Source: Giardia intestinalis (taxonomy: Eukaryota). From it: 64,000 bases of DNA. Location: the NCBI GenBank assembly GCA_000002435.2, contig CM018790.1. One strand, given 5' to 3'. This document shows positions 29,300-44,150 of this stretch, in pieces. Under the pieces are notes generated by a model that saw nothing but the letters and a program-made list of their open reading frames with translations, did not search any database and was not told the DNA's origin. A program made the translations under genes and the position numbers. Numbering within the stretch: the stretch's first letter is position 1; each line of letters opens with the position of its first letter.

Positions 29300-30454
29300 A
29301 TGACAGCCAATTACATATACACACCCAAGGATAATCCTCGTGAACATACAGATGTTTACAAGCCAACAATATTTATGACGGACACGCTATCTCCGTCACA
29401 GGGATCCCCAAAGGAGCCAGCTGGACGAAGATCTGTTAGGTTTTCGTCCATAGAAACAACTTTACCCGTTAATAGGTCAAGCCTTCTTACTGGCTCACAT
29501 ACTGCAGAGCCACATACCACGCAAAGAGTACCTAAAACAGCACAGCATCGGAGAGCAGAAGGATTCTCAACCATGCCTTTACAGCGGCCAAAGAGCACTC
29601 TTGCAGCGTCATCTGAAAAGCGTCCCATTGCAGAGTCCACAGACTTAAAGCCTATGCTAGATGAAGGCAGGTACTTCCTAGCAACCTCTAGCTCTGCTTC
29701 TGACTCCAAAGTGTCACGCATATCATGTGCCAATCAACTTTCGCAAGCCTCTAGAAGCGAAGACACCCGGATAGATTCATCGTTTTCTAGTGCATCTAAC
29801 AAGACTCAACGCCACACCTCATCTACCCGGCATAATCCTCTGTTGGATGGTCCGACGTCACGGCCCGAGTACATTGCAAAGGGGCCAGTCGAGCAAGAGA
29901 TCCCTTTGCCGCAGTTCCATGTCATCAAGCTATTGCAAGCAGAATACGTCCTACTATTGCTCAGAAATGAGCGTTTGCAAAAGTATCGCGCCTTTTGTGC
30001 ATTTACCCACAATTTGTTATTGAAGACGCTTAGGAATAAGGCAGCAAGCATACGCACAGAGGTTTTAAAAGCTGCATATTCAGATCTGGCCCAATCCCTC
30101 AACGCTGCGAACGCCGCTCTTCAGGACATTTCTAAGAGAACACTTGCTACGTTTACTCCATCTACTCTCAAGCAACTCAGTGCTTTGAATGATGCTGTGG
30201 AGGCATGTACGGCTGCGAGGTTACGAGGGCTGAGTCTTGTTCCTGCTAGTGAGTGCACGGAGCGCTTGTTAGAGCTGCTCAGAGCTGCTGATGAATTTCT
30301 CGAGCACATTTCTCCCATTGAAGCTGACGTAGCGATTGATTCAGCAGAAGGGGTTAATGCTGGACTAGTGAGTCATCTCTGCAGATCAACAGCGAGGCTA
30401 CAGGCGCTGATTTATGAGGCTGCCCTTCTGGGTCACAGGAAAGATCATGGTTAA
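29300..30454 (+). CDS. Hypothetical protein, 384 aa (Ser/Thr-rich N-terminus, helical C-terminus).
   Basis: ATG ORF immediately after the 16-bp AT-rich spacer. Confidence 0.55.
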   Translation: MTANYIYTPKDNPREHTDVYKPTIFMTDTLSPSQGSPKEPAGRRSVRFSSIETTLPVNRSSLLTGSHTAEPHTTQRVPKTAQHRRAEGFSTMPLQRPKSTLAASSEKRPIAESTDLKPMLDEGRYFLATSSSASDSKVSRISCANQLSQASRSEDTRIDSSFSSASNKTQRHTSSTRHNPLLDGPTSRPEYIAKGPVEQEIPLPQFHVIKLLQAEYVLLLLRNERLQKYRAFCAFTHNLLLKTLRNKAASIRTEVLKAAYSDLAQSLNAANAALQDISKRTLATFTPSTLKQLSALNDAVEACTAARLRGLSLVPASECTERLLELLRAADEFLEHISPIEADVAIDSAEGVNAGLVSHLCRSTARLQALIYEAALLGHRKDHG

Positions 30455-30477: not shown

Positions 30478-31326
30478 ATGTATGCGACAATCTCGCCAAT
30501 TGTAGTGCTCAACGACTCCACGCGGATTCTTGCTGACCTGTTTTATCGCCTATCAACGTTCAAGGGTGAGTTCGGCTTCCGTGTCTCGCTTCGCCTGGGT
30601 TACCTCAAAGACCCTATGCCTATGCTTTCCAACTGTATTTTTCACCAAAAGTGCTACAGGGAGACAACACGTGTCATTGGGGAGACATATAAACTGCTGG
30701 AGGTTCTTCCAGCGTCTGTTTTTGAGAAGCTTCTCTATGCGTTTATATTCCCTGAAAAGCCTGCCCCTGCACCGAGGGCAGGCTCCTCTGTTCTAAAGCC
30801 ATCAGACCTACCTCCCTTCGACCTTAATTTTAGGCGTAGCATGCAATCAGAGCTTAATTCTGTTATAGTTACAGAGAACCATACTGACGGCGTTCTTACG
30901 CATAAATACATTCAGCATGAATTTTTTTCATCGACACTTGTCTGCGGTGGTGCCACACGCCTCTTAGTCGAACAAGTTGTCGAAGACACCCGTGCAATCT
31001 CGGCCAATACCTGCGAAGTTTATAAGTGGTCGCGCTGCATACGTCTAGGAGATACACTCAAGGATAGTGACCTTCTAGCACAACTGCCTTTGCAGTTGGT
31101 GTTCGAACTTGAGGAAACAACCTTCGAGACTCGCTACCTTTTCAGAGTAGAAGTTCTGCAGATTGATGAACTTTTGGAGGTAGGATCCCGTGAGCTTAGT
31201 AATATAGACTACGAAGCTGATATTCAAGCGGCTCAAAAATGTCTTACAGAGACTCTTTTCTGGAAGTACGCCGACGCCATCTTACGACTTCAGGCAGGCG
31301 TGGACAGAATTCTCAGCCTTAGCTAA
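30478..31326 (+). CDS. Hypothetical protein, 282 aa.
   Basis: ATG ORF 23 bp after the preceding stop. No recognisable domain. Confidence 0.5.
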   Translation: MYATISPIVVLNDSTRILADLFYRLSTFKGEFGFRVSLRLGYLKDPMPMLSNCIFHQKCYRETTRVIGETYKLLEVLPASVFEKLLYAFIFPEKPAPAPRAGSSVLKPSDLPPFDLNFRRSMQSELNSVIVTENHTDGVLTHKYIQHEFFSSTLVCGGATRLLVEQVVEDTRAISANTCEVYKWSRCIRLGDTLKDSDLLAQLPLQLVFELEETTFETRYLFRVEVLQIDELLEVGSRELSNIDYEADIQAAQKCLTETLFWKYADAILRLQAGVDRILSLS

Positions 31327-31378
31327 TCATAACCTAGGTAGTCATATAAAATACTCTAGGTTTATGTTAATAAACTTA

Positions 31379-34300
31379 CTAAATTGTTAGTGGCTGGAGA
31401 GATCCATTGCCTGCGCATCCGCGCTTGCACACTGTCAGGCCGAGTGCAAGGCCAATGGCCCCGCCTACAAGAACGGCCACGCCAAGGGTGATCCCTGTGA
31501 TCGCGCCTGGGCCGAGGCTACGCTTGACCGACGAGCCTCCGCAGTAGTTCTCCAGGGGGAGATCTCCGTCCGCACAACGGAGGCAGAGGACGGCGCCTGA
31601 CCATGCCTGCGCCTGGCAGAGCCCGCACCCGTGGATGCCTGCCATCCGAAGCCCCTGGGGCGCCGTCTGGTCGCAGGGCACACAGTCCCGGGGGCCTCCG
31701 AGGGGCGTCGCCTGGAAGTACCCGTCGGCACAGGCCAGACAGCTGGCTGCCGACGAACAAGCGGCGCACAGAGGGGGGCATGCCAGGCAGCGGTCGCCTG
31801 CCAGGTGCCAGCCCCTCTTGCAGGAGGTGCAGACGCCCCCGTCGCAACGGGCGCAGCCGGCCGCGGTGCACGGGCTGCACGAGCCCCCGGAGAGCCCGTA
31901 GCCCTCCGCGCAGGCGTGGCACGTGACCCCCGCCCTTGTCAGGTCTGCTGCGCACACGGCACAGTGTGGAATTCCCGTGAAACCGTTCTGACTTGTTGCG
32001 TCATCGCACGGGCGGCAATCGGACGGAGCAGAGACAGAGCTCTGCGTCGAGTAGTATCCCTGGCTGCACGCGCTGCATGTAGTGGCAGATGTGCAGCGGA
32101 GGCAACCAGGCACGCAGGGGATGCATTCCCTGCCGCTTGTCCAGAAGCCCTCTGCCGGACAGTCGCGGGGGCACAGGAGCATCCCGTCCAGAGTCAGCGC
32201 CTTGCGTCCACTCTCGCACGCCAGACAGACGACCGGGCCCACGCGATCAGCGAGGCGGCACCTGCTGGCGCTGGAGTGGGTCGGCCTGACCTCGACGGCG
32301 TTCTCGTTGCATCCTGTGCACGCTATGCTTTGCTCCCTACAGAGGCACTGCGGAGGGCAGATCTTAGGGACGCACTCTTCGCCGTTCCAGATGTGCTCTG
32401 GGACGCAGCTGGTGCATCTCGTGCTTGTACACGTTGCACAGTTGTCGATCGCACACGGGATGCAGCTGCCGGCGGCCTCGTAGTACGCCACTGGACAGAC
32501 TGCATGGCAGGTCACCTCTGTCCCGGTCGAGAGCGCCTTGTAGCCCGGGAGACAGTCCTTGCACAGTGCGGGGCCCGCTACCTTCGGAGCCTCACAGAGC
32601 CTGCAGCCACTCACTCCCACCCAGCTGTCCCTGCCAGATGTGTCCGAGCAGGCAAGACAGGTTCCCAGGCCAGGCGTGGCGAACGTGCCAAAGTACCCCT
32701 CGGCGCACTCTTTGCACCTATCAGCCCCCATACCATCGCACGTCTTGCACGCCGGGTGGCACGCAATGCAGGACGTACTCTGGAGATAGTATCCGGCCCT
32801 GCAAGCGGTGCACGTGTTGGGGTCGTCTACGCACGCGCCGCAGTTGGGATCGGAGCAGCGCACGCAGCCCTTGTCTGTCTTGGAAAAGCCTGCCTCGCAT
32901 GCATTGCACCCGGACGTTGACTCCGTGGTGTCTCCACAAATGCTCGTCCCCGGCGCCCTTCCCTTTGTGTAGCAGGCGCCCTCGAAGAGGAACATCCCGT
33001 CTCCGCAGTGCGAGCACACACCCTTGCTGCAGATAAGTCCCTCCTTCGGCTCTGCGCACGTGCCATCCAGGGGAACCTCTCCGTCAATCAGGCAGCGCCC
33101 GCAGACGACCTGGCCGTCGACGACCGCTGCATCGCGCTCATCACAGATGCCCGTGCCGGGGTACTCGCCTGCGGAGTAGCAGCCCCCCTGGTAGAGGAAG
33201 TAGCTCCCTCGGCACGCGGTGCAGCGGCCCTTCTTGGCGTCCTTTACGCATGGACCGGCAAGTGAGCGAGCTTCTCCAGGATAGAGTGTGCAGATGCCGT
33301 CGATCGGCACGTAATCACTCGACGCGCACTGCGAGCACAGAGACCCGTCCATGACTGTGCAGGAGCCCCAACTACAGGCATCCTGCCCCACTCTTTTGCA
33401 GGGCTTCGTGCAGTATGCCCCGGCCCCGACGCCTGTCAGCGTGTAGGGCTGAATGCATTCTGTGCAGTACTTCACGTCTATCTCGCAGCTGGCGCAGTTG
33501 GAGACGGCGCAGGACATGCACGTCAGCGTCTCCTTATTGTGACGGTAGCCGGGTCTGCACCGCCGACAGGTCCCGGCTTCGCGGCCTGTTCCAAGGACCT
33601 CGCAAATCCCACTTCCAGGAGTAGTCGTGATATCATAGCAGCCTCCCTCGTGGAAGAAGTAGTTCTCGGGACATATGACGCATAAACCGCTGGAGCACGA
33701 GACACCATCTGGCACATCCTTTGTACACAGGCCATTTATTGGAAACTCTCCTGCAAGATTGCACTGCTTGCAATATGTGCGCCCTCCGACTGTCAGAAGC
33801 TCCCTACAAATGCCAGACCCGGGAGTCGCGGCAGGGTCATAGCACCCGCCCATGTAGAGCATGTATCCGCGTAGGCACCCTGTGCAGACACCCTTCCCCT
33901 TCTCGCAAACATAGTCTGTGTCATGCCCCGTGCAAGCCCCGTTGATCGGCCACTCGTCATCCAGCGCACACCTGGAACAGTACAGCGAGCCCATCGCCGT
34001 ACAGCTGCCAGCCTTACAGTTACCAGACTCTGATCCACTGTCGTTGCAGCTTTGGATACACCGCGAGCCGTCCTCGCTAGGAATGTGCTTGTCCTTGCAT
34101 CGCGTGCAGATGACCCTCTTTGGTGCCTCGCTTGGATAGCACTCTGTGCAGCCGTCAACGCCCGTGTATCCATTTGTTCCACCTGTATCATTACATAGGA
34201 TGCAGGACTCCTTTGTGGGATCGAGCAGGCCTGTGCTGTAGTACCCGGAGGCACACGATGTGCACACTCCTGCAACCGCTGAGTCGACGGCCACTGCACA

Positions 34301-37300
34301 AAGCACCGTTCCAGGCGAGCGTCCTATCTCGTAGCACCCCCCGGCGTGCAGGAAGAACCTTGGTCCGCAGCGTGTGCACGACGTGGGGCTTGGTGTGGCA
34401 GCGACACATTGCGATCTGATTGCCCTAGTGTCGGTCAGTGCAACGCATGAGCCATCGATCGGGACTTCCCCGTCTTGCTTGCATTGCTTGCAGATAGTGT
34501 ACGGGCCCAGCGTAGCTTGATGCTGGCTGTCACATATGGCAGTCCCAGCTGCTGCGCCTTTAGCATAGCAGCCCCCATAGTAGAGGAGGTGCGTGTCCTT
34601 GCAAGCCGCACACGTCCCGCTGGATGGGGTTGTACGGATGCAAGCGTCGTCATTTGCCTTGCACTTTCCGTCGATGATAACGCTGCTTAATAGCGCACAG
34701 CGGCTGCATGCAAGCGTGCCGTTGACATTGCAGTATCCTGCAGCACAGGACGTGGAAAGCAATCCAACGGGGCATTCCTCAATACATATGTTATTCCTCA
34801 GTGCAAATCTATCCTTGCAGACCTTACACCCAGTACTATCGCACTTCTTACACCCGGGTGTGCATGCAACACACGAGTTCCCACTGGCATAATACCCATC
34901 CTGGCAAGAGGCGCAGGTATTTGCCGCATTGCACGTCAAGCAGTGGAGCACGCTGCAAGCAACACACTTTTCGGCCGCAAGATAAAAGCCGTCTGCGCAT
35001 CCCGTGCATTTTGCTGCACTATCTTGACACGTCTTGCAGCTCTTATCGCACAGCTGACAGAACTCAGCAGACTCATACATCCCATCCGGACACTTAGTAA
35101 AGCATGCAACCGTTGCAGGACTTCCATCCTTGGTTATCTGGAATGACTTAACACCCTGTTTGCACGACTTGCAGATGCCATCCTCCTTGACGGTGCAGTC
35201 ATCCGAGACCTTGCACTCCCCATCAACGGGCACCTCATCCTTCTGCTTACACTTCGCACAAAACGACCCTGCGCCCGATGTCACGACATCCTGGGCGTCG
35301 CAGATGTCCCTCGCCTCGAACGACCCCGCTTCATAGCAGCCACCCTTGTACTTGATGTATCCGTGGGCGCAGTATTTGCAGGTGCCATTAGCTTGTTCAT
35401 ATTGTATGCACACGCCTGCGGCCACTGAAGCACACACGCCGTTGACTGGGCCCTCGGCGTCAGCAGCGCACTGGGAGCAGTAGAACGTGCCCAGGACATC
35501 ACACTTGTCCTTTCTGCACCTGTGCTCCTTGGGGTCTGCCTCTGCCTCAACGCACGTTTGCACGCACTCCGTTCCCCCATTCATTGGTCTGTAGAACTGC
35601 TCGCAGGCAACACAGACCAGGAGTCCGTTGGAAACCTCGCAGCTCTTGCAGTGGGGTATGCCCTTCAGCGTGTCGCTGTTCTCTGTGCACGGAACACACG
35701 AGTCGCTGACACTTGAGCGGTCGGGGGGCGGGTAGTATCCATCCTTGCAGGTGCTGCAAATGCCGTCATGCACTCCAAGGTCTTTGCAAACCGTGTTTCC
35801 AGGAGCCCTTTCTGCCGAGACGCAGCTCCCAAGCATCAGGAAGTAGTCGCTGCTGCAATAGTAGCACGTGCCAGTGGGGACGCGGTGCAGAGTGCACACC
35901 GCAGCCTCTGTGCTGCCGGGCGTAAGGCAGTGTCCATCGACCAGAAGGTCTGTCACGACTCCGCACTGGAAGCAGTATAGCGTGTTGCCTATTAGGTTAT
36001 GCCTAACGCACGCTTTACTCCCGGGAGGCGCAGCTGGATTGTAGCACCCGCCCATGTAGAGGATGTGGGTCGTCGCACACGACGCACACGTATCATTTTG
36101 TTGTGTTTGCGGTGTGCAAACATTACTATTAGTGGAGGTACACCTTCCATCCACGAGATAATCTGACTCTAGCGAACACCTAGAACAATACTTCCCGTTG
36201 AGCACGTTGCAGTAGCCCTTCAAACACTTTCCTGTCGCCTTGCTGCTCTCCTCTACTTCTGGACAGGATTCTTCGCATCGATTCTGCTCGTTCAAGATGT
36301 ACCTATCTGCGCAGTCTGTACAGGTAGCCGGTCCTGCTGCTTTAGGAGGCAGGCATGTATCGCAGTGATCTATTCCAGTATACCCGTTGCTTCCAACTGT
36401 ATCGTTGCACGCAATGCATGAGTCTATCGCCGTGCTAGCCACCGGGTTCTTGAAGTACGATTTGCCGCACTCCTCACAGACCCCGGCCCCGACCCTGGCG
36501 CAGATATCTGAGTGTGATTCCTGCCGCATGCATATTCCCCTGTGCATAAAGTAGCCGGACCCGCATGCAGTGCACTTGCTGCTTGTGCACGTATTTCCGT
36601 CAAGTTCTGCTGTGCATGACCCATCGACAGGGTACTCGCCCGCATCATTACACGCTTTGCAATAGGCAGTGCCCTTTTCTACTATCTGACTATCTTGTTT
36701 GCAGATCTCGATCACTGGCTGGGTAATCTTATAGCACCCGCCGTAGTATAGCAGGTGGGTTGCGGCGCAGCGAAGGCATGTTCCCGAAGAGGCATTCAGA
36801 CATATGCGGGCCCGTTCTCCTCCCAACGAGCAAACTCCATCTATGGGGACCTCGTTTGCCTCGCTGCATCTGCTGCAAAAGGTGTTGTCTCGAACCGTGC
36901 ATCCTCCGTAGATACACTTCCCTGGGCCGATGCCCTCCTCACAGACTTTTTCGCAGACCTTCGACCCCTTTGTGTTGTCCTTGAGGAAGTATCCCGAGTT
37001 GCAGCTGGTGCAGGAGGCTGCATCTCCGGAACAGGCCCGGCAGTTGCTAACCTCGCAGACCTTGCATCCGTTGCCCGATGACATGTATCCATCTTCGCAC
37101 TTGGAACAGGTGCTGGTGCTGTCGTCTTCATCTTTGCAGATAAGCATGCCAGGCATGACACCCTTTCGGTAGCATCCCCCGTTGTATAGAAAGTACCCCG
37201 ATGCGCAGGATGTGCAGGCGCCATCTTGTGCACTGTGCCCATCTAGGGTGGCTGTGCATATGCCGTCAACAGGACATTCTGCAGATGTGGCGCACCTTGA

Positions 37301-38929
37301 ACAATAAGTGTTGGAAATGGTATTGCAGTGTCCCGTTTTGCACTGTTCCGCCCCCTCAGCCCCTTCATGACAAACCTGCACACAGCTGTTGCCCTTGAGG
37401 ACATGCCCAGTGGTGCACTTTGTGCAGATAGGCATGGTCCCGCTGGGCTTGGGGCTGCACCTCTCGCAATTTGCGACCCCTACGATTGTGATAGTGGCCA
37501 CCGGATCGTTGCAGGGCTTGCAGTAGCCGCGCCCCCCGCTGAAAACCTCAAAGTAGACATCCTTTTTGCAGGACAGGCAGCTGTCGGCAGCACCGCTACT
37601 GCATGTTTCACAGGACTGGTGGCATGGTGCGCACGTGCTGCCACTGCGGTAGTACTTGTTCCTGCACACTTTGCAGCCACCCGTGCCGTCCAGCTCGTCG
37701 CATATGACGTTCCCGGGCGACGTCTCGTTTGAGTAGCAGCCGCCTTTGTAGAGGAAGGCTTTCGCTCCACAGCTTGCACATGTCGTGTCCGTGGGTGTGA
37801 CCGCAGAGCCCCGGGACGTCACACAGCCCACTGCTGCCACCTCTTGCGCGTCGTACCTCAAACAGACCCCTGAGACAGGCACGAAGCCCGGCTGCGCACA
37901 TCGGACACAGACCGTACGCTCCTGGACCTCGGAGGTCTCTGCGCACACCTCCTGCCCCAGAGGTTCTGCTACGCTATAGCAGCCTCCCTGAAAGAGCAAA
38001 TGCCCCTTGGCACAGACACTACAGGTGCCGTTGGGGGGATCGAATGGGGTGCAGATCTTCTTGTCATCTGCAGAGACGCATTTCCCATCAATAAGAAGGT
38101 CGCTACTGCTAGCGCACTGAGAGCAGTATCTGTTATTCAGCGCGGTGCACATGCTTGTTTTGCATTTGGTTGCCTGGCTATCGTGCTCATCACATGTCTG
38201 CGTACATCTTTTGGCAGTAAGGTCGTACGAGTACTTGCTCACGCATACACTGCAATCCTCTGGTCTTTCGCCTGTGCATGTGGCACAGTTGTCAGCGCAA
38301 GCGGTGCACTTACCCTCTTTAATGAAGTACTTTTCTTTACATAGAGTGCAAGTGATCTCGTCGGAGTTTTGAGAGCACTGTGCACAAGCTGTTACTCCAC
38401 CATCTGCAGCAGAGCACTCCTTACATTCGTTATTCTTGAGAAACCGATCTGACCGGCAACTGAGGCAGGACTGAGCAGTGTTGCTTGTGCACGTGGCGCA
38501 TGTGGAGTGGCAGGGCTTGCACTGGTGAATGCTGGATGTCGTGTCTAGAAAGAATCCATCTACACACAGCGTGCAGTATCCTGATGTAGCAGTTCTGCAT
38601 ATGCGGTTTCCGGGGCTATAGAGCACGTTATAGCACCCTCCCTCGTGGAGAAAGTAGCTTCCGTCGCGGCAAAGTTCGCACTTCCTGGCAGAGGTACTCA
38701 GCGGAGCCCCTACGCTGCCTCCGCAACCAGATGCTACTGCCCTGGGGTCAGTGAGGGGGATGCACACCCCGTTAATAGGCACCTCTCCGGGGATTGCACA
38801 CTCGGCGCAATATTGCCCGTCCAAAACTTTACAATTGTTTTCTGCACAGATAGCTGTATCTCGATCAGAGCCTGCAGCTTGGATGCATATCGAAAGAGCC
38901 GCGCCTATCAGCTCAAGAAAAAGAATCAT
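31379..38929 (-). CDS. Giant VSP-like high-cysteine membrane protein (HCMP), 2516 aa.
   Basis: Signal peptide, more than 13 GGCY motifs, CXXC pairs throughout, a single C-terminal TM, and a tail CKRGCAGNGSLQPLTI that is not the VSP CRGKA tail. The ectodomain consists of about 8 repeated ~300-aa modules. Confidence 0.85.
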   Translation of the reverse strand: MILFLELIGAALSICIQAAGSDRDTAICAENNCKVLDGQYCAECAIPGEVPINGVCIPLTDPRAVASGCGGSVGAPLSTSARKCELCRDGSYFLHEGGCYNVLYSPGNRICRTATSGYCTLCVDGFFLDTTSSIHQCKPCHSTCATCTSNTAQSCLSCRSDRFLKNNECKECSAADGGVTACAQCSQNSDEITCTLCKEKYFIKEGKCTACADNCATCTGERPEDCSVCVSKYSYDLTAKRCTQTCDEHDSQATKCKTSMCTALNNRYCSQCASSSDLLIDGKCVSADDKKICTPFDPPNGTCSVCAKGHLLFQGGCYSVAEPLGQEVCAETSEVQERTVCVRCAQPGFVPVSGVCLRYDAQEVAAVGCVTSRGSAVTPTDTTCASCGAKAFLYKGGCYSNETSPGNVICDELDGTGGCKVCRNKYYRSGSTCAPCHQSCETCSSGAADSCLSCKKDVYFEVFSGGRGYCKPCNDPVATITIVGVANCERCSPKPSGTMPICTKCTTGHVLKGNSCVQVCHEGAEGAEQCKTGHCNTISNTYCSRCATSAECPVDGICTATLDGHSAQDGACTSCASGYFLYNGGCYRKGVMPGMLICKDEDDSTSTCSKCEDGYMSSGNGCKVCEVSNCRACSGDAASCTSCNSGYFLKDNTKGSKVCEKVCEEGIGPGKCIYGGCTVRDNTFCSRCSEANEVPIDGVCSLGGERARICLNASSGTCLRCAATHLLYYGGCYKITQPVIEICKQDSQIVEKGTAYCKACNDAGEYPVDGSCTAELDGNTCTSSKCTACGSGYFMHRGICMRQESHSDICARVGAGVCEECGKSYFKNPVASTAIDSCIACNDTVGSNGYTGIDHCDTCLPPKAAGPATCTDCADRYILNEQNRCEESCPEVEESSKATGKCLKGYCNVLNGKYCSRCSLESDYLVDGRCTSTNSNVCTPQTQQNDTCASCATTHILYMGGCYNPAAPPGSKACVRHNLIGNTLYCFQCGVVTDLLVDGHCLTPGSTEAAVCTLHRVPTGTCYYCSSDYFLMLGSCVSAERAPGNTVCKDLGVHDGICSTCKDGYYPPPDRSSVSDSCVPCTENSDTLKGIPHCKSCEVSNGLLVCVACEQFYRPMNGGTECVQTCVEAEADPKEHRCRKDKCDVLGTFYCSQCAADAEGPVNGVCASVAAGVCIQYEQANGTCKYCAHGYIKYKGGCYEAGSFEARDICDAQDVVTSGAGSFCAKCKQKDEVPVDGECKVSDDCTVKEDGICKSCKQGVKSFQITKDGSPATVACFTKCPDGMYESAEFCQLCDKSCKTCQDSAAKCTGCADGFYLAAEKCVACSVLHCLTCNAANTCASCQDGYYASGNSCVACTPGCKKCDSTGCKVCKDRFALRNNICIEECPVGLLSTSCAAGYCNVNGTLACSRCALLSSVIIDGKCKANDDACIRTTPSSGTCAACKDTHLLYYGGCYAKGAAAGTAICDSQHQATLGPYTICKQCKQDGEVPIDGSCVALTDTRAIRSQCVAATPSPTSCTRCGPRFFLHAGGCYEIGRSPGTVLCAVAVDSAVAGVCTSCASGYYSTGLLDPTKESCILCNDTGGTNGYTGVDGCTECYPSEAPKRVICTRCKDKHIPSEDGSRCIQSCNDSGSESGNCKAGSCTAMGSLYCSRCALDDEWPINGACTGHDTDYVCEKGKGVCTGCLRGYMLYMGGCYDPAATPGSGICRELLTVGGRTYCKQCNLAGEFPINGLCTKDVPDGVSCSSGLCVICPENYFFHEGGCYDITTTPGSGICEVLGTGREAGTCRRCRPGYRHNKETLTCMSCAVSNCASCEIDVKYCTECIQPYTLTGVGAGAYCTKPCKRVGQDACSWGSCTVMDGSLCSQCASSDYVPIDGICTLYPGEARSLAGPCVKDAKKGRCTACRGSYFLYQGGCYSAGEYPGTGICDERDAAVVDGQVVCGRCLIDGEVPLDGTCAEPKEGLICSKGVCSHCGDGMFLFEGACYTKGRAPGTSICGDTTESTSGCNACEAGFSKTDKGCVRCSDPNCGACVDDPNTCTACRAGYYLQSTSCIACHPACKTCDGMGADRCKECAEGYFGTFATPGLGTCLACSDTSGRDSWVGVSGCRLCEAPKVAGPALCKDCLPGYKALSTGTEVTCHAVCPVAYYEAAGSCIPCAIDNCATCTSTRCTSCVPEHIWNGEECVPKICPPQCLCREQSIACTGCNENAVEVRPTHSSASRCRLADRVGPVVCLACESGRKALTLDGMLLCPRDCPAEGFWTSGRECIPCVPGCLRCTSATTCSACSQGYYSTQSSVSAPSDCRPCDDATSQNGFTGIPHCAVCAADLTRAGVTCHACAEGYGLSGGSCSPCTAAGCARCDGGVCTSCKRGWHLAGDRCLACPPLCAACSSAASCLACADGYFQATPLGGPRDCVPCDQTAPQGLRMAGIHGCGLCQAQAWSGAVLCLRCADGDLPLENYCGGSSVKRSLGPGAITGITLGVAVLVGGAIGLALGLTVCKRGCAGNGSLQPLTI

Positions 38930-39140
38930 TGATTCCTTTTAAATTTGCAAATTGCTGGATAATATCACTATTGCAAAAAGCTCTAAGTGATGATCCCAGA
39001 TAAATCTATGTACATTTATCTCACGCATCTGAATTTAAAAAACTGACCTCTTCATTGGACATATTATTTGAAACCTAATTATTATGAAATGAAACAATAT
39101 ATTCCGGTCTTTAGGCAGCTCGAATATACGAGGATTCCCC

Positions 39141-42100
39141 ATGCCACCGTGCACAGTGGAGCTATCCTTGTACTTTCTTGCCTGGGATAAGGTATATGCG
39201 TATTTGCGCTATAGAGATTTACCAATCTTCAATAAGACTGGCAGGCACGAACCGCTCGGTGTGTTTTTCCCTGCCGGACGTCCGTGTCTCATTAAGTACC
39301 AAAACGTTGAGCTGGCCGGGGAAAAGCTTGATGCAGAGTGGTCTGCTGCCTGCAAACCCACAGCTAGCTCTCCAAAAATGCTTTTTATATCTGATCATGC
39401 AGAGCCAGTCGAGGGCCTGTCTGAGCTTAGCCTTGCTGCGGTCTACTCTGTTGGCGGAGACATCTTTTTTGGTGACAGGAGCTTCCTGATATCTAGATTT
39501 GAAGGCTTTTTTCCCATACCAGAGATGTACGCCACATCGGCTGCTCAACTTAGCGGATTTGAATTTATTGTAAAGGACGTTCACCTATATATCTCCAAGG
39601 CTCTGCTAATTGCTTTGCATTCGGGCGACTCTGCTGCTTTGAACGCTCTTCCAGAACAGGGTGTTTTGCACCAGATGAGAACGTCCATTCGAGGAATTTC
39701 GTCTCTGAGCGCGTCACTTGTGGCATCTGTGGAGCTCCAGGAACAGGAGTACAACGAGAACCTGGAGGCACTTGCTACCCTTATAGTTCCCGAGAGTGTT
39801 CAACGTTCTTCCTCCTGTCCCGATTCTGAGTCTAGCTTGTTTACACAATTGGCTAGTTTGCTTGGAGATGTTTTTATGCCGATCTATCTGTTTGATTTCT
39901 CTAAGGGAAAGCCACCCTCTGTCGATTCGTCAGAACCCACTTTGCAAGCATACCAGGGAGAAAGGTTCTTCATTTCTCTTGTTGCTGATGTCGAGGTATA
40001 TAGTAAGCCCAGCAGCTTGACGTGGATTCACAGGACAACAACGCCGTGCTTTTGCGGCACCACTTTACGCTTTTTTCTCGATGACATGTATAAGATAATT
40101 CAGTTATTTTTTCAAAAAATTGAGCTACAGCCGGTTATTTATTTATACCCTGCGGCCACAATGAATGATTGCAACGCAGAAATAGACCTTGTTCAGTATT
40201 CTTCTAAATCAGGGTTGTTTGGGGCAGTTGTTTTAGTTCCCTTCCTTTGCACGCACGCGTTTCTATCGTCTGCGGAAGCTTGCATTGATGTAGCTGCTAA
40301 TATCTTTACTTATTGCTTTCTGTCCTGGGCGGTTAGCTCTATTCTCTCATATAGTACGACGCATACCAGAATGAAGAGCTCCCTGACGGATTTCTTCATG
40401 CTGTCCCTTTTCTATCAATATAAGTCTTTAATTCTATCGTTTCTAAGCGATTCCGGACTCTGCATGGACGCCTATCATACCTATGACCCACAACTCTTGG
40501 AATACACCGCTATCGACAGGCTGATGAAAGATATACATGCACTACGGCAGATGACGTATTACAGATATGATCGGAGGCTTGATCTGCAAATTTATGAGTT
40601 CATAATCTCTCTCCACAAGAGCGCGTCTCTTGATCTATACAGCTCTCAGACGTCTAGTAAGTATCTCAGTGACATGGCAAAGCTGCTTGCGTTTTCTTTG
40701 AGCCTGGATCTTCCATCCAGTATTCTCACAAACACCTGGGCGCAAGATAACATCATAAAAGAGGTTGAGTGTGCGTTTTTCTCTCCAATCCTGACACGAT
40801 ATGTCGCATTACACGATGGTTCCCATGCACTGCATACCAAGAATCGCACCGCTACGTCCTCTAACTCGCACATGAGCTTCTTGCCGACGGTGATGTTTGT
40901 TTGCGGACCAACCGACAAGACCTATGCAACTTACTTTGAACAGCATGCAGATCCAGTACGTTCCATTTTCTCGCGGCCACCTCAATCTGGTTCATCTCAG
41001 AACTCCGTTTTTTCTTGCTTAAAGACCTTGCTACTGCTTCCTAGTAATGTCATTGGATTATCTTCCTCATGTCCACAGTTAAGATCTATGAAGGACGTCC
41101 TCATGGATACTAAGGACGTCTTTGCGGAGATTGCTACTTACTTGAGTCCGCCGATGACATACACGTTTTCTCTTCTTGAAAATGATCACATCAAGCTTAC
41201 TACGTACTCTAAGCATGTCATTTTGTCCGCCTCTACCATCTATGCGCAGTTCTATTCTAAGCTATATACTCTTCCACAAGTCACCGTGCAATCTGAGCTA
41301 CTAAGATTGGCCGAAAGTCTATCAATTATTAATACAATACCCTCGAAATTATCATGTCTTTTCTGCCCCCATTACACGCGAAATGCATTTTTTCTTCAAA
41401 TCATGACTCCTAAGGCACTTAAATCCCTGCACCAGCAAGAGATGCCTGACGATGGACAAGTCAAGGCCCCAGATGGGATCTTGTGTATTGGCACTGCTGC
41501 CCAAGAATGTTCTCAATCCCTCTCCGCAGCGGTTGAGCTGACGAAGATCATCAGCTCCACACACAACCAGGCTAGAGTGCTGGAGCAACTATACACGGGG
41601 TCTCACCACGAAGACCGTCATCTGTCTATGTTGACTCACTTTGACTCTAATTTCTCAATACCCTTTTCTAGCCTAAGGCTTTTACTCGACAAGAAGGTTC
41701 AAAATGAGCGGCCTATAGTGGTGTTCAAAGCAGAGCTTAACTTAATTTTCAAAAGCATTAGCGCAAGCACCGGTGAGTACTTTTCTACCAGTGGGGCCTC
41801 ATCTCCGGCACCTCTTACTGACGTTATGTTTGTGCACATCCTCCATCCAGGCTCATTTAGAGACCTTGCTAAAGTCTTCTATGCTAGAGACTTCTCTAAT
41901 TTGCAATTGAATTCTGGCATTGTAGTGTCCTATCCTTCTACCAACTGCTTTGTCGCACGGCATGCACGAAGCGGTATTCTTGGCATAGTTGAACCTTTTC
42001 TGCTGTTTGTCTGCCCCCGTGGTAATCCACCCGATCCATTGCGGCTCGTAGAGGCTTTGAATATGTCTGCCAGAAACGCACATCTGCATTTCCTATACAA

Positions 42101-44150
42101 AATTGGGGCGGAGCTCTCCCAGATGGGCACCATCAACGCTGATTTAATAGACATCATCATGTCCACTGTGGAGACGCAAGGAATCTTCAGCCAGCTCAGT
42201 ATCTATTTCCTTGTTATGTCCAAGCTTCTCTTCGTTCTTAGAAGCATTATTTTGAATGAAACCTCATCTGTAACCTCGTCCCTGCGACGGGCAGCAGCCT
42301 CTTATCTTTATCTCATTGGTGACCGCGTCTGGTTGATAGACTACCTGACCACCCTTTTACGGATCATCCGACACTATACAGACCAATCTTCTGCTATTGT
42401 TGCAGCCGGTATAGTCAAGTCACTACTGCCTATCTTTTGCCGGGTGGACGCAGGCCTCTACCTGCTGCTGCAGCTTTGTATTCGAGGTGTCTGTAGCAAG
42501 GAGCGCAAGGCACTGGATACTAATCGTGACGGACTTAGAACTGTGGTATTAACAGACGCAGAGTGCCGCTGCAACTTAGTTTATAATATGGATTTCTGTG
42601 CACAAGTCCTGCGCAATGCGGCCATCTTTTCCTACACTAGAGCCACTGGTCCCACGGTGTCATCATTCGACTTGCAGCGCTCCTGTTCGCCAACCTGCTT
42701 GTGTGATCTAGATGGGCAGAAGTTGTCGTCTGGCTGTGAGGGCAAGCCAAAAACAGCGTGTACCCTCCGGACCATGCTCGGCATTCGGCAAAAGGTGACA
42801 GACCTCATCGATCTGTTGATGAATCCCGCATCGGTACACAGTCTCAGGGTTATAAAGTCTCTCGATGACGTGTCAGAATTGGTACAGTCCGTTTTATTCT
42901 ATGCAGTAACGCGTATCCGTCTATTTTCTGAAATGGAGTGGCTATTGAAGCTCCCATCCATATGCGAGACCATATATATCTATATAGGTAGGTATTCAGA
43001 AGGCACTGATCTCCTGTGCACCCAATCAGATATTGCTAAGTGCCCTGAGCCCATCAGGACGAAGGTCCAAACAATTCACTTTCAAATGCTTGCCAATCTA
43101 TTATCCATACCGGTAAAGCAACATGCGCTCGTGGTTGTTGAACAAGCTGAACGTAGCTCTTCACCCTATTGGACCACCATGCACCAGCTGCTTTCTCACT
43201 TAGTGCATGTCAATGTACCAATTAGCGAGTTCACCCTATCATCTGTGCTGCACCTACTGGTCAAGTTAGGGACAGACCTACACTTAGCTCCACAGTGCCG
43301 ACAAATGGCACTTCAACTGGCGTACATACTGCTATCACGCACTAACGTTGTAACACCTGTAGCACCAGCTCACTTTTTATACATAAACATTATCATAGGC
43401 GCTTTTGGGACTCGCAGGGCGATCCACTCTTTGACGTTTCTGGAATGGACGCTTGAGGTCCAACCCTACATTACGTACTTTATGAATAATTTTGGAGGCT
43501 ACGCGTTCAACCCCCAGCGGCCCTCTATTCCGCGCATTTTCTCATTCATGGAGCCAGCCTGTCCCGATTGTTTCTTCGGCACATGCACATGTTCATTTCT
43601 TTCTGATTCGTTGTACTATAGGAGCGTCAGGGAGATGGCTCATGAACCGTTCCTGAAGAAGATGCTTGCGCTAGGCCAGACGGTCCTTTCTATGATGAAC
43701 ATGCCTATAGCCATTTGCGGGGACATGCGGATATATGAGGACTATGAACAATCATTTACATCACGAATTGAGGAGCTGCGCAAGCCGCGGATTGAAGAGC
43801 GAATGGACTTCATAGCAAAAATTATGCGGAGCCCGGAGGAGCCACAGGATGTGGACAACCCGTCGCAGCAAATGCTGACAAGCACGGAGCTGGCCCGAGA
43901 AGAGATGCGATTAATTCAAGGATACTGTATGCATTCTCAAGACGGAGAGCTCCGCTTGTTGGCACAGCATGTTCTGAAGCTAATCACCTTGATATTGGGG
44001 GACACAATTGCAAAGTATGATGTCCCTGGGACGGGAAAACTTATTCTTCGTGACGCACCCCATAAAAATAAAATGCTGGACAAGTCGGAATTAGTTCTAA
44101 TACACTTCAGAGACAGATGCATCTGTATGAGATCATATTCCAACCCCTAA
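39141..44150 (+). CDS. Large hypothetical protein, 1669 aa. The N-terminus may be beta-rich, followed by a helical solenoid.
   Basis: Uninterrupted ATG ORF. Ends 5 bp before the stop of the convergent Dopey-like gene. Confidence 0.75.
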   Translation: MPPCTVELSLYFLAWDKVYAYLRYRDLPIFNKTGRHEPLGVFFPAGRPCLIKYQNVELAGEKLDAEWSAACKPTASSPKMLFISDHAEPVEGLSELSLAAVYSVGGDIFFGDRSFLISRFEGFFPIPEMYATSAAQLSGFEFIVKDVHLYISKALLIALHSGDSAALNALPEQGVLHQMRTSIRGISSLSASLVASVELQEQEYNENLEALATLIVPESVQRSSSCPDSESSLFTQLASLLGDVFMPIYLFDFSKGKPPSVDSSEPTLQAYQGERFFISLVADVEVYSKPSSLTWIHRTTTPCFCGTTLRFFLDDMYKIIQLFFQKIELQPVIYLYPAATMNDCNAEIDLVQYSSKSGLFGAVVLVPFLCTHAFLSSAEACIDVAANIFTYCFLSWAVSSILSYSTTHTRMKSSLTDFFMLSLFYQYKSLILSFLSDSGLCMDAYHTYDPQLLEYTAIDRLMKDIHALRQMTYYRYDRRLDLQIYEFIISLHKSASLDLYSSQTSSKYLSDMAKLLAFSLSLDLPSSILTNTWAQDNIIKEVECAFFSPILTRYVALHDGSHALHTKNRTATSSNSHMSFLPTVMFVCGPTDKTYATYFEQHADPVRSIFSRPPQSGSSQNSVFSCLKTLLLLPSNVIGLSSSCPQLRSMKDVLMDTKDVFAEIATYLSPPMTYTFSLLENDHIKLTTYSKHVILSASTIYAQFYSKLYTLPQVTVQSELLRLAESLSIINTIPSKLSCLFCPHYTRNAFFLQIMTPKALKSLHQQEMPDDGQVKAPDGILCIGTAAQECSQSLSAAVELTKIISSTHNQARVLEQLYTGSHHEDRHLSMLTHFDSNFSIPFSSLRLLLDKKVQNERPIVVFKAELNLIFKSISASTGEYFSTSGASSPAPLTDVMFVHILHPGSFRDLAKVFYARDFSNLQLNSGIVVSYPSTNCFVARHARSGILGIVEPFLLFVCPRGNPPDPLRLVEALNMSARNAHLHFLYKIGAELSQMGTINADLIDIIMSTVETQGIFSQLSIYFLVMSKLLFVLRSIILNETSSVTSSLRRAAASYLYLIGDRVWLIDYLTTLLRIIRHYTDQSSAIVAAGIVKSLLPIFCRVDAGLYLLLQLCIRGVCSKERKALDTNRDGLRTVVLTDAECRCNLVYNMDFCAQVLRNAAIFSYTRATGPTVSSFDLQRSCSPTCLCDLDGQKLSSGCEGKPKTACTLRTMLGIRQKVTDLIDLLMNPASVHSLRVIKSLDDVSELVQSVLFYAVTRIRLFSEMEWLLKLPSICETIYIYIGRYSEGTDLLCTQSDIAKCPEPIRTKVQTIHFQMLANLLSIPVKQHALVVVEQAERSSSPYWTTMHQLLSHLVHVNVPISEFTLSSVLHLLVKLGTDLHLAPQCRQMALQLAYILLSRTNVVTPVAPAHFLYINIIIGAFGTRRAIHSLTFLEWTLEVQPYITYFMNNFGGYAFNPQRPSIPRIFSFMEPACPDCFFGTCTCSFLSDSLYYRSVREMAHEPFLKKMLALGQTVLSMMNMPIAICGDMRIYEDYEQSFTSRIEELRKPRIEERMDFIAKIMRSPEEPQDVDNPSQQMLTSTELAREEMRLIQGYCMHSQDGELRLLAQHVLKLITLILGDTIAKYDVPGTGKLILRDAPHKNKMLDKSELVLIHFRDRCICMRSYSNP

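What the first reader, a model, noticed from the sequence alone, without database searches (positions are those of the whole stretch)
31379..38929. 2516-aa VSP-like HCMP built from about 8 tandem ~300-aa double-GGCY supermodules
Each supermodule repeats the pattern KC..G.C........C.RC.......DG.C...(Cys-rich)...C..C...H.L.Y.GGCY.......G...C, and the GGCY motif recurs more than 13 times. The protein has a signal peptide and one C-terminal TM. Its 16-aa cytoplasmic tail (CKRGCAGNGSLQPLTI) is not the canonical CRGKA VSP tail. The size and regular modularity suggest expansion by internal tandem duplication. A surface Cys-rich protein of this size is unusual.
Basis: seen in the sequence. Interest (0 to 1): 0.55.

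Follow-up and report, generated by a model that had tools for sequence, protein, structure and literature searches.

The report
Known giant Giardia cysteine-rich membrane protein
This is the already catalogued Giardia intestinalis WB gene GL50803_113416, a 2516-residue non-variant relative of the parasite's variable surface proteins built from nine old, diverged cysteine-rich modules; it is real and intact, but it is not a new discovery.

Summary
The ORF is real: 31379..38929, minus strand, 2516 aa, 13.0% Cys, 108 CxxC. It is 100% identical to KAE8302064.1/XP_001708230.2, "High cysteine membrane protein TMK-like" of Giardia intestinalis WB. Its mass, CxxC and GGCY counts, TM segment and tail match ORF 113416 in Davids et al. 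2006 (PMC1762436).

The modular reading is right in kind, but the numbers are off:
- There are nine co-linear supermodules of 142-274 aa (mean about 230), not eight of about 300.
- There are 12 exact GGCY motifs and 15 GGCY-type units, not more than 13 GGCY.
- Seven modules have a second unit, and two are single.

Modules are only 26-42% identical and there is no DNA-level tandem repeat. The architecture is identical in the syntenic assemblage E (P15) orthologue, so the expansion is ancient with no copy-number variation seen.

- **Not a VSP:** it lacks the CRGKA tail, the PyAATGTT initiator and the extended poly(A) signal.
- **Conserved:** it sits among housekeeping genes. Between WB and P15, dN/dS is 0.14 and all 327 Cys are conserved.
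- **Expressed:** it has been detected by mass spectrometry in trophozoites.

An AlphaFold2 model of one module is confident (pLDDT 85.7). Only its furin-like part resembles a solved fold (R-spondin).

Verdict: already known; low interest.

The parts
31379..38929 (-). Complete CDS of GL50803_113416 (2516 codons plus TAG stop at 31379-31381), High cysteine membrane protein TMK-like
   Evidence: ORF list and translation. 100% identity over 2516 aa to KAE8302064.1/XP_001708230.2. Pfam PF03302 E = 2e-175.
38867..38929 (-). aa 1-21, hydrophobic N-terminus (MILFLELIGAALSICIQAAGS), predicted signal peptide
   Evidence: Kyte-Doolittle 19-aa window mean of 2.07 at residue 1. No dedicated signal-peptide predictor was available. 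Davids et al. 2006 class the protein as Type 1 integral membrane.
38165..38848 (-). Supermodule M1 (aa 28-255): head plus one GGCY unit plus CxxC/furin-like repeats. The second GGCY unit is replaced by CxxC repeats.
   Evidence: Head and GGCY regex, module alignment, leave-one-out HMM 74.6 bits.
37343..38164 (-). Supermodule M2 (aa 256-529): head, two exact GGCY units and an extended furin-like part
   Evidence: (157.6 bits).
36917..37342 (-). Supermodule M3 (aa 530-671): short form with head, one GGCY unit and a furin-like part
   Evidence: (80.8 bits).
36227..36916 (-). Supermodule M4 (aa 672-901): head, a GGCY unit, a second unit with GICM, and a furin-like part
   Evidence: (152.2 bits).
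35519..36226 (-). Supermodule M5 (aa 902-1137): head, a GGCY unit, a second unit with GSCV, and a furin-like part
   Evidence: (153.9 bits).
34748..35518 (-). Supermodule M6 (aa 1138-1394): head, a GGCY unit, a second unit that has lost GGCY, and an extended furin-like part
   Evidence: (111.6 bits).
34019..34747 (-). Supermodule M7 (aa 1395-1637): complete double-GGCY module. This is the one modelled with AlphaFold2.
   Evidence: 152.8 bits. AF2 mean pLDDT 85.7, pTM 0.80.
33377..34018 (-). Supermodule M8 (aa 1638-1851): complete double-GGCY module
   Evidence: (151.2 bits).
32630..33376 (-). Supermodule M9 (aa 1852-2100): head, a GGCY unit, a second unit with GACY, and a furin-like part
   Evidence: (150.1 bits).
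31520..32629 (-). aa 2101-2470: membrane-proximal CxxC/furin-like repeat region without GGCY. It matches the C-terminal part of the Pfam VSP model and contains the WB-specific 21-aa deletion site (aa 2222/2223, about 32263/32264).
   Evidence: The module HMM matches only with its furin-like positions 140-214. Pfam VSP profile positions 238-378. Deletion.
31436..31504 (-). aa 2476-2498, transmembrane segment AITGITLGVAVLVGGAIGLALGL
   Evidence: Strongest hydropathy peak of the protein. Identical to the TM listed for ORF 113416 in Davids et al. 2006, Table 1.
31382..31435 (-). aa 2499-2516, cytoplasmic tail TVCKRGCAGNGSLQPLTI with two Cys; not CRGKA
   Evidence: Translation. Identical to the tail in Davids et al. 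2006, Table 1. The last 16 residues are identical in the P15 orthologue.
38930..38960 (-). AT-rich sequence directly upstream of the ATG (..gcaaatttaaaaggaatcaATGatt..), the presumed minimal Giardia promoter. The start context CAATGAT is not the VSP initiator PyAATGTT.
   Evidence: Sequence. VSP initiator definition from bioRxiv 10.1101/2022.03.07.483299. Promoter function is inferred, not tested.

Best explanation
The locus is Giardia intestinalis WB (assemblage A1) gene GL50803_113416. [quoted passage not shown]

**Shown here**
- It encodes a type I membrane protein: a hydrophobic N-terminus, an ectodomain of about 2450 aa, one TM segment and a tail of 16-18 aa.
- The ectodomain is a string of nine homologous supermodules.
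- Each supermodule has a 29-aa head (C-x4-C-x7-C-x2-C-x8-[DN]G-x-C), one or two GGCY units of about 70 aa, and two to four furin-like CxxC repeats.
- About 370 aa of furin-like repeats next to the membrane follow the ninth module.
- The modules arose by ancient internal tandem duplication and are now fixed.
- The gene is a single-copy positional orthologue in a housekeeping neighbourhood and is under purifying selection, with every cysteine conserved.

**Inferred**
- The 324 ectodomain cysteines form about 162 disulfides.
- These would tie small beta-hairpin units into a long, stiff, protease-resistant stalk on the trophozoite surface.
- The two tail cysteines are candidate palmitoylation sites, by analogy with the Cys of the VSP CRGKA tail.
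- The most likely role is as a constant (non-switching) surface component used for protection or host and environment contact. It is not an antigenic-variation protein or a kinase-coupled receptor.
For: **Identity**
- 100% identity over 2516 aa to KAE8302064.1/XP_001708230.2.
- Exact match to Davids et al. 2006, Tables 1 and 3, for ORF 113416: 262 kDa, 13% Cys, 108 CxxC, 1 CxC, 12 GGCY, and the same TM and tail strings.

**Family**
- Pfam VSP PF03302, 16 stretches, E = 2e-175.
- A profile of the nine modules retrieves only Giardia VSP-family proteins among the named hits; every hit but two unnamed metagenome sequences carries PF03302.

**Architecture**
-.

**Ancient, fixed modules**
- Modules are 26-42% identical.
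- There is no DNA tandem repeat.
- GGCY positions are identical in the WB paralogue 114180 and the P15 orthologue.

**Conservation**
- The P15 locus L001 is fully syntenic.
- dN/dS is 0.143 against 0.02-0.19 for six neighbouring genes, and Cys conservation is 327/327.

**Not a VSP**
- No CRGKA.
- Start context is CAATGAT, not PyAATGTT.
- No extended poly(A) signal or AGTRAA near the stop.

**Expression**
- ORF 113416 was quantified by shotgun MS in WBC6 trophozoites (PMC7775365).

**Fold**
- AF2 model of M7: pLDDT 85.7, pTM 0.80, made of short beta-hairpins.

**Family-level function hints**
- HCMPs are the most strongly regulated family during host-cell contact (PMC7461913).
- CRMPs are proposed to be stress-induced and protective during VSP switching (bioRxiv 10.1101/2022.03.07.483299).
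Against: - No localisation, disulfide mapping, palmitoylation or knock-down data for this particular protein were found in the searchable literature.
- The host-interaction paper's main text does not mention 113416, so family-level regulation may not apply to it.
- The signal peptide is inferred from hydropathy only.
- The related protein HCNCp localises to the cyst wall and encystation vesicles rather than the trophozoite surface, so a plasma-membrane location cannot be assumed.
- The AF2 model rests on an alignment of only nine internal repeats.
Confidence: 0.9

Rival explanations
1. It is a true variant-specific surface protein (VSP) that takes part in antigenic variation, merely with a mutated tail.
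For: - Strong Pfam VSP match.
- Has CxxC and GGCY motifs, a signal peptide and a single C-terminal TM.
- Orthologues in other isolates are auto-annotated "Variant-specific surface protein".
- The juxtamembrane CKRG resembles CRGK.
Against: - No CRGKA tail.
- The TM lacks the VSP ...GFLCWWF end.
- Start context is CAATGAT, not PyAATGTT.
- No ACTTAGRTAGTRAAYRY extended poly(A) signal, and no AGTRAA within 1.2 kb downstream.
- The gene lies in a housekeeping syntenic block conserved between assemblages A and E.
- dN/dS is 0.14 and the tail is identical in P15.
Confidence: 0.03
2. It is a signalling receptor of the Entamoeba transmembrane-kinase (TMK) type, as the name "TMK-like" suggests. The ectodomain would bind a ligand and signal across the membrane.
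For: - Davids et al. report E = 1.3e-4 for ORF 113416 against an HMM of E. histolytica TMK ectodomains.
- Furin-like repeats are typical of receptor ectodomains (R-spondin and EphA2 hits).
- The tail is conserved between assemblages.
- All three paralogue tails share an L[QR]PL[TY][IA]-COOH end.
Against: - The cytoplasmic part is only 16-18 aa.
- Pfam finds no kinase or any other intracellular domain.
- The TMK similarity is weak and confined to generic CxxC repeats.
- No partner is known.
Confidence: 0.05
3. It is a stage-specific cyst or excyzoite protein, like the related HCNCp. It would be trafficked through encystation vesicles to the cyst wall rather than being a trophozoite surface protein.
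For: - HCNCp is a 1609-aa HCMP with 5 GGCY motifs. It is up-regulated late in encystation and goes to the cyst wall.
- Localisation of 113416 has not been reported in the papers searched.
Against: - 113416 protein was measured in vegetative WBC6 trophozoites.
- It belongs to a different MEME group from HCNCp (Davids Table 3).
- No encystation-specific data for it were found.
Confidence: 0.07
4. The long ORF is a decaying pseudogene or an assembly artefact of a repetitive region.
For: - WB carries a private 63-nt deletion relative to all relatives.
- The third family member, 113319, now survives only as a 191-aa fragment.
Against: - There are 7548 nt without a stop codon.
- The protein length is the same in the 2007 and 2020 WB annotations.
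- There are no DNA-level repeats that could mislead an assembler.
- The P15 orthologue is intact and syntenic.
- dN/dS is 0.14 with all Cys conserved.
- Peptides have been detected.
- The deletion is in frame.
Confidence: 0.01

Closest known systems
GL50803_113416 itself (High cysteine membrane protein TMK-like; Davids et al. 2006, PLoS One 1:e44, Tables 1 and 3)
   Same: Everything that could be compared matches: 100% protein identity to the GenBank/RefSeq entry, 262 kDa, 13% Cys, 108 CxxC, 1 CxC, 12 GGCY, TM AITGITLGVAVLVGGAIGLALGL and tail TVCKRGCAGNGSLQPLTI.
   Different: Nothing differs. The report adds only an explicit nine-module map, the A-versus-E selection analysis, and a module structure prediction.
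GL50803_114180 (WB paralogue, 2539 aa, the largest CRMP) and the 113319 fragment
   Same: - 94% identity overall and about 97% through the body.
- Same nine modules with GGCY at identical positions.
- Same TM segment.
   Different: - Different signal-peptide region (68% identity in the first 100 aa).
- The tail ends ...STGEGLRPLYA.
- It retains the 21 aa that 113416 has lost.
- 113319 is now annotated only as a 191-aa C-terminal piece.
Giardia variant-specific surface proteins (VSPs, Pfam PF03302)
   Same: - Same domain family and same building blocks: CxxC repeats, GGCY units and furin-like repeats.
- Type I topology with a short Cys-containing tail.
   Different: - No CRGKA tail, no VSP-type TM end, no PyAATGTT initiator and no extended poly(A) signal.
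- About four times the median VSP length (645 aa).
- Conserved syntenic orthologue under purifying selection, rather than an isolate-specific repertoire.
HCNCp (GL50803_40376), the only experimentally characterised large HCMP
   Same: Large (1609 aa), about 14% Cys, type I membrane protein, multiple CxxC and GGCY motifs, non-CRGKA tail.
   Different: - Different MEME group (Group 1 rather than TMK-like).
- 5 GGCY motifs against 12.
- Encystation-induced and located in the cyst wall; nothing comparable is known for 113416.
Furin-like cysteine-rich repeats of metazoan proteins (R-spondin Fu1-Fu2; the EGFR/insulin-receptor CR-domain class)
   Different: - The match is weak and local.
- The head and GGCY units have no match among solved structures.
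- There is no evidence of shared function.

Membership tests
HCMP / CRMP (Davids et al. 2006 criteria; Rodriguez-Walker et al. 2022 decision tree) | At least 400 aa and at least 10% cysteine | tested here: met
   2516 aa, 13.0% Cys.
HCMP / CRMP (Davids et al. 2006 criteria; Rodriguez-Walker et al. 2022 decision tree) | At least 20 CxxC and/or CxC motifs | tested here: met
   108 CxxC and 1 CxC.
HCMP / CRMP (Davids et al. 2006 criteria; Rodriguez-Walker et al. 2022 decision tree) | Type I topology: N-terminal signal peptide and a single C-terminal TM | tested here: met
   Strong hydropathy peaks occur only at aa 1-21 and 2474-2502. This is a prediction from hydropathy; no SignalP or TMHMM was available, and topology has not been shown experimentally.
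HCMP / CRMP (Davids et al. 2006 criteria; Rodriguez-Walker et al. 2022 decision tree) | Cytoplasmic tail is not CRGKA | tested here: met
   The tail is (TV)CKRGCAGNGSLQPLTI, and CRGKA is absent from the protein.
TMK-like HCMP group (Davids et al. 2006) | Ectodomain scores against an HMM of Entamoeba histolytica transmembrane-kinase ectodomains | not tested
   No Entamoeba TMK sequences or HMM were available here. Davids et al. report E = 1.3e-4 for ORF 113416.
TMK-like HCMP group (Davids et al. 2006) | Sequence identity with the listed members 113416, 114180 and 113319 | tested here: met
   All Table 1 and Table 3 descriptors match 113416. Identity is 94% to 114180 (P0007).
Entamoeba-type transmembrane kinase (true TMK) | Intracellular protein kinase domain | tested here: not met
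   Only 16-18 residues follow the TM. Pfam reports no family other than VSP.
VSP (variant-specific surface protein) | Pfam PF03302 domain with CxxC and GGCY motifs | tested here: met
   E = 2e-175, 16 stretches. 12 GGCY motifs.
VSP (variant-specific surface protein) | C-terminal pentapeptide CRGKA | tested here: not met
   Absent.
VSP (variant-specific surface protein) | Conserved VSP TM consensus [25 protein letters not shown] | tested here: not met
   The TM here is GAITGITLGVAVLVGGAIGLALGL. It shares the GAIxGI...VGG core but lacks ...GFLCWWF (consensus).
VSP (variant-specific surface protein) | Initiator/Kozak-like PyAATGTT at the start codon | tested here: not met
   The start context is tCAATGATt. 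Definition taken.
VSP (variant-specific surface protein) | Extended poly(A) signal ACTTAGRTAGTRAAYRY within about 28 nt of the stop | tested here: not met
   The 3' sequence is ..CAATTTAGTAAGTTTATTAAC.., with AGTAAG rather than AGTRAA. The nearest minus-strand AGTRAA is at 30152-30157, about 1.2 kb downstream.
VSP (variant-specific surface protein) | Mutually exclusive, switching expression | not testable with these tools
   This needs single-cell expression data for 113416.

The most novel reading that the evidence does not exclude
This protein and its paralogue 114180 would be constant, very long surface "masts" that project well beyond the switching VSP coat.
- Nine rigid disulfide-stapled modules plus a furin-like stalk would hold them out from the membrane.
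- They would therefore be invariant, assemblage-conserved antigens or host-contact sensors.
- Their GGCY unit would be a protein fold with no experimentally solved representative.

The evidence here does not exclude this:
- The gene is conserved and syntenic.
- It is under purifying selection with all Cys conserved.
- It is expressed in trophozoites.
- The module model is confident, but only its furin-like part matches the PDB.
Probability: 0.2. Interest if true: 0.4.

Novelty: already known. Interest (0 to 1): 0.1.

Why it matters
As a discovery it does not matter much. The gene has been annotated since the 2007 WB genome. Its size and its CxxC/GGCY counts, TM segment and tail were tabulated in 2006, and its family was re-analysed in 2020-2022.

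This check adds some modest value:
- It gives an explicit, statistically supported nine-module map.
- It shows that this giant HCMP is a conserved positional orthologue under purifying selection rather than part of the variable repertoire. That bears on the open question of what HCMPs/CRMPs do and whether any are useful invariant antigens.
- It gives a confident module model indicating that the GGCY unit lacks a solved structural relative.

Tried and rejected
- **Self-BLASTP of the whole protein.** It returned only the trivial self-hit. Replaced by fragment-versus-whole BLASTP.
It matches only twice. Replaced by the true head pattern.
- **My first strict head regex.** It had the wrong spacing and found nothing. 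The architecture was confirmed with an HMM instead.
- **DNA-level tandem or dispersed repeats.** TRF found only three trivial 9-15 nt arrays. The repeat finder found only the ~47-nt stretch encoding the GGCY motif, at 62-85% identity. Recent duplication is rejected.
- **First exact-sequence cluster look-up.** It failed because I trimmed the wrong end of a minus-strand CDS. Resolved by direct comparison.
- **The look-up of encoding contigs for the paralogue P0007.** It returned nothing, so the paralogue's genomic context was not examined.
- **Antisense ORF 31631..32920 (429 aa).** Considered and rejected as a by-product of GC-rich coding sequence. It is Ala/Arg/Gly-rich and not kept open over the same span in P15.
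- **VSP, true TMK and pseudogene readings.** Rejected; see the rival explanations.
- **Literature searches for 113416 and 114180.** They found no functional study of this protein.
Full report

The window holds one uninterrupted ORF at 31379..38929 on the minus strand, 2516 codons plus a TAG stop.

- The product is 13.0% Cys, with 108 CxxC, one CxC and no CC.
- GGCY occurs exactly 12 times, at aa 97, 315, 396, 584, 730, 960, 1196, 1452, 1530, 1694, 1762 and 1915.
- Three degenerate copies (GICM, GSCV, GACY) lie in the same sequence context, giving 15 GGCY-type units.
- Kyte-Doolittle hydropathy shows only two strong hydrophobic segments, aa 1-21 and aa 2474-2502. This is consistent with a signal peptide and a single C-terminal TM.
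- The TM is followed by CKRGCAGNGSLQPLTI, and CRGKA is absent.

The raw observation stands, except that "more than 13" GGCY is an overcount.

**2. Modularity**

Fragment-versus-whole BLASTP shows each 150-aa fragment matching 7-16 other places at 24-55% identity, with E-values down to 4e-33.

A strictly spaced 29-aa head motif, C-x4-C-x7-C-x2-C-x8-[DN]-G-x-C, occurs nine times, at aa 28, 256, 530, 672, 902, 1138, 1395, 1638 and 1852. Cutting at these heads gives nine co-linear supermodules of 228, 274, 142, 230, 236, 257, 243, 214 and 249 aa. They align end to end with 22 invariant columns, 18 of them Cys, and pairwise identity is 26-42%.

Each supermodule is built in this order:
- the head;
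- a first GGCY unit (...GTCxxCAxGYxLYxGGCYxxxxxPGxxIC);
- in M2 and M4-M9, a second unit that opens with CxxCxxxGExPVDGxC; its GGCY position is exact only in M2, M7 and M8, degenerate in M4, M5 and M9, and lost in M6;
- two to four furin-like CxxC repeats.

M3 has no second unit, and in M1 that stretch is replaced by CxxC repeats.

Two tests support this map:
- **Leave-one-out test.** Each module scores 75-158 bits against an HMM of the other eight, while 100 composition-matched shuffles of each module never exceed -2.7 bits.
- **Six-frame scan.** An HMM of the nine modules was scanned over the six-frame translation of the whole window. It hits only this ORF, with nine matches that start at profile position 1, plus extra partial matches of the furin-like part only. 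Five of those partial matches lie in aa 2101-2470.

It should read nine modules of about 230 aa, seven of them two-unit, followed by a GGCY-free membrane-proximal stalk of about 370 aa.

**3. How old is the expansion?**

- At the DNA level there is no tandem repeat. TRF finds only three trivial 9-15-nt arrays.
- The only dispersed repeat is the ~47-nt stretch that encodes the GGCY motif, at 62-85% identity.
- GGCY positions are the same in the WB paralogue (P0007) and in the assemblage E orthologue (P0001).

The internal duplication therefore predates the A/E split by a wide margin, and no copy-number variation is seen among the five full-length relatives available. A Giardia muris HCMP (P0002, 1407 aa, 25% identity) contains the same kind of CxxC...DGxC / GGCY units, so the unit itself is older than the genus split.

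**4. What is it?**

- The protein is 100% identical over all 2516 residues to KAE8302064.1 / XP_001708230.2, "High cysteine membrane protein TMK-like" of Giardia intestinalis WB, ATCC 50803.
- Davids et al. 2006 (PMC1762436), Tables 1 and 3, list ORF 113416 with 262.0 kDa, 13% Cys, 108 CxxC, 1 CxC, 12 GGCY, TM AITGITLGVAVLVGGAIGLALGL and tail TVCKRGCAGNGSLQPLTI. They place it in the MEME group "TMK-like". Every item matches this ORF.
- The same paper already states that most HCMP groups show "regular repeat patterns".
- Rodriguez-Walker et al. (bioRxiv 10.1101/2022.03.07.483299) reclassify HCMPs as CRMPs with lengths of 190-2539 aa, and single out the paralogue 114180 for its 12 GGCY motifs.
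- Pfam assigns only PF03302 (VSP): 16 stretches, E = 2e-175.
- A profile of the nine modules searched against 5.8 billion proteins returns 33 hits. Every named one is a Giardia VSP-family protein (or a P15 hypothetical that UniRef names VSP), and all but two unnamed hits carry PF03302.

**5. Not a VSP, not a kinase, not a pseudogene**

VSP-defining features were taken and tested here:

| VSP feature | Result here |
|---|---|
| CRGKA tail | Absent |
| VSP TM end ...GFLCWWF | Absent |
| Initiator PyAATGTT | Start context is CAATGAT |
| Extended poly(A) signal | Absent; AGTAAG overlaps the stop, and the nearest minus-strand AGTRAA is 1.2 kb away |

- **Not a kinase.** Nothing follows the TM except 16-18 residues, so it is "TMK-like" only in its ectodomain. 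Davids et al. give E = 1.3e-4 against the Entamoeba TMK ectodomain HMM, which I could not re-test.
- **Not a pseudogene or artefact.** This is excluded by the intact ORF, the same length in both WB annotations, the intact orthologue, the selection signature and detection of the protein by shotgun MS in WBC6 trophozoites (PMC7775365, Fig. 4).

**6. Genomic context and selection**

- Neighbours are ordinary genes: an ankyrin-repeat protein, a Dopey-family protein, V-ATPase subunit C and several conserved unknowns.
- The P15 contig ACVC01000054.1 carries the same genes in the same order and orientation around a 2537-aa orthologue (L001).
- Nei-Gojobori estimates for WB versus P15 give dN 0.073, dS 0.513 and dN/dS 0.143 for the HCMP.
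- Six flanking genes give dN/dS of 0.02-0.19.
- Per-module dN/dS is 0.10-0.15, and all 327 cysteines are conserved.
- The 16-aa tail is identical in P15.

This is the behaviour of a constrained, non-variant gene. It contrasts with the isolate-specific repertoires described for most Cys-rich genes.

**7. Structure and likely mechanism**

- AlphaFold2 on module M7 (aa 1395-1637), using only the nine internal repeats as its alignment, gives mean pLDDT 85.7 and pTM 0.80. The architecture consists almost entirely of short beta-hairpins.
- By sequence profile, the last third of the module resembles R-spondin furin-like repeats (E = 2.6e-5).
- Foldseek against PDB gives nothing at E <= 0.001.
- The head and GGCY units therefore have no solved structural relative in the libraries searched.

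Inference:
- 324 ectodomain cysteines (327 minus one in the signal peptide and two in the tail) are available for about 162 disulfides.
- A chain of small disulfide-stapled units should form a long, stiff, protease-resistant stalk.
- The two tail cysteines are candidate palmitoylation sites, by analogy with the VSP CRGKA Cys.
- Family-level data suggest that HCMPs respond to host-cell contact and stress, but I found nothing specific to 113416.

I rate the identity and architecture as essentially certain. I rate the role as a constant surface structural or host-contact protein as the most likely but untested function.

**8. Novelty and score**

The gene, its family, its extreme size, its motif counts, its tail and the existence of internal repeats are all published, so the category is "already known".

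New here are:
- the explicit nine-module map with statistics;
- the synteny and purifying-selection result;
- a WB-specific 21-aa microhomology deletion;
- a confident module model.

These are incremental, and interest is low (0.1). The most novel reading still open is that these giant conserved HCMPs are invariant "masts" projecting beyond the VSP coat, with a structurally unsolved GGCY fold. I give that about 0.2 probability and moderate interest if true.

Noticed in passing
window ~32263/32264 (aa 2222/2223 of the HCMP); L001 ~16667-16729: WB 113416 lacks 21 aa (RCLLCNDAGAGGGWTGVDGCQ) that are present in the WB paralogue 114180, two other assemblage A sequences and the P15 orthologue. In P15 DNA the 63 nt are flanked by AGGTGC direct repeats, which suggests a microhomology-mediated in-frame deletion. 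It removes three Cys and the eighth copy of the sub-motif C-x2-C-[NSDT][DEQ]-x4-12-G[IV]-x2-3-C-x2-C; seven copies remain.
   Followed up: partly
window 31379-38929 versus flanks: The gene is markedly more GC-rich (0.49-0.68 per 450 nt) than its surroundings (about 0.46). There is also an internal step: GC3 is 0.53-0.70 for aa 1-1800 but 0.74-0.78 for aa 1801-2516. The cause was not examined; candidates are biased gene conversion with paralogues or codon-usage selection.
   Followed up: no
window 31631-32920 (+) and 32425-33036 (+): Long antisense ORFs (429 and 203 aa) lie inside the GC-rich 3' part of the gene. The 429-aa product is Ala/Arg/Gly-rich, and the open stretch is not conserved in extent in P15 (439 versus 317 codons). 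It is probably a by-product of GC-rich coding sequence.
   Followed up: yes
proteins P0007 (GL50803_114180) and P0004 (191 aa), elsewhere in the WB genome: The WB paralogue is about 97% identical through the body, but only 68% in the first 100 aa (a different signal peptide), and it has a different tail end. That is closer than the A-versus-E orthologue pair (85%), so either the duplication is recent or gene conversion has acted while sparing the ends. The third "TMK-like" member, 113319, now exists only as a 191-aa C-terminal fragment.
   Followed up: partly
window 31382-31399 (last six codons of the HCMP): The tails of the three paralogues all end in L[QR]PL[TY][IA]-COOH (SLQPLTI, GLRPLYA, GLRPLTA), even though the rest of their tails differs. 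This may be a sorting or interaction signal.
   Followed up: no
window 31327-31378: Only 52 nt separate the stop codons of the HCMP and the convergent 282-aa gene (30478..31326). There is no AGTRAA poly(A) hexamer for the HCMP within 1.2 kb; only AGTAAG overlaps the stop. The 3' ends of the two transcripts probably overlap.
   Followed up: partly
window 39141-44150 (+), 24518-27376 (-), 29300-30454 (+), 30478-31326 (+): Four neighbouring ORFs (1669, 952, 384 and 282 aa) have no Pfam match. They are nevertheless conserved in order and orientation in assemblage E, with dN/dS of 0.07-0.19, so they are real genes of unknown function.
   Followed up: partly
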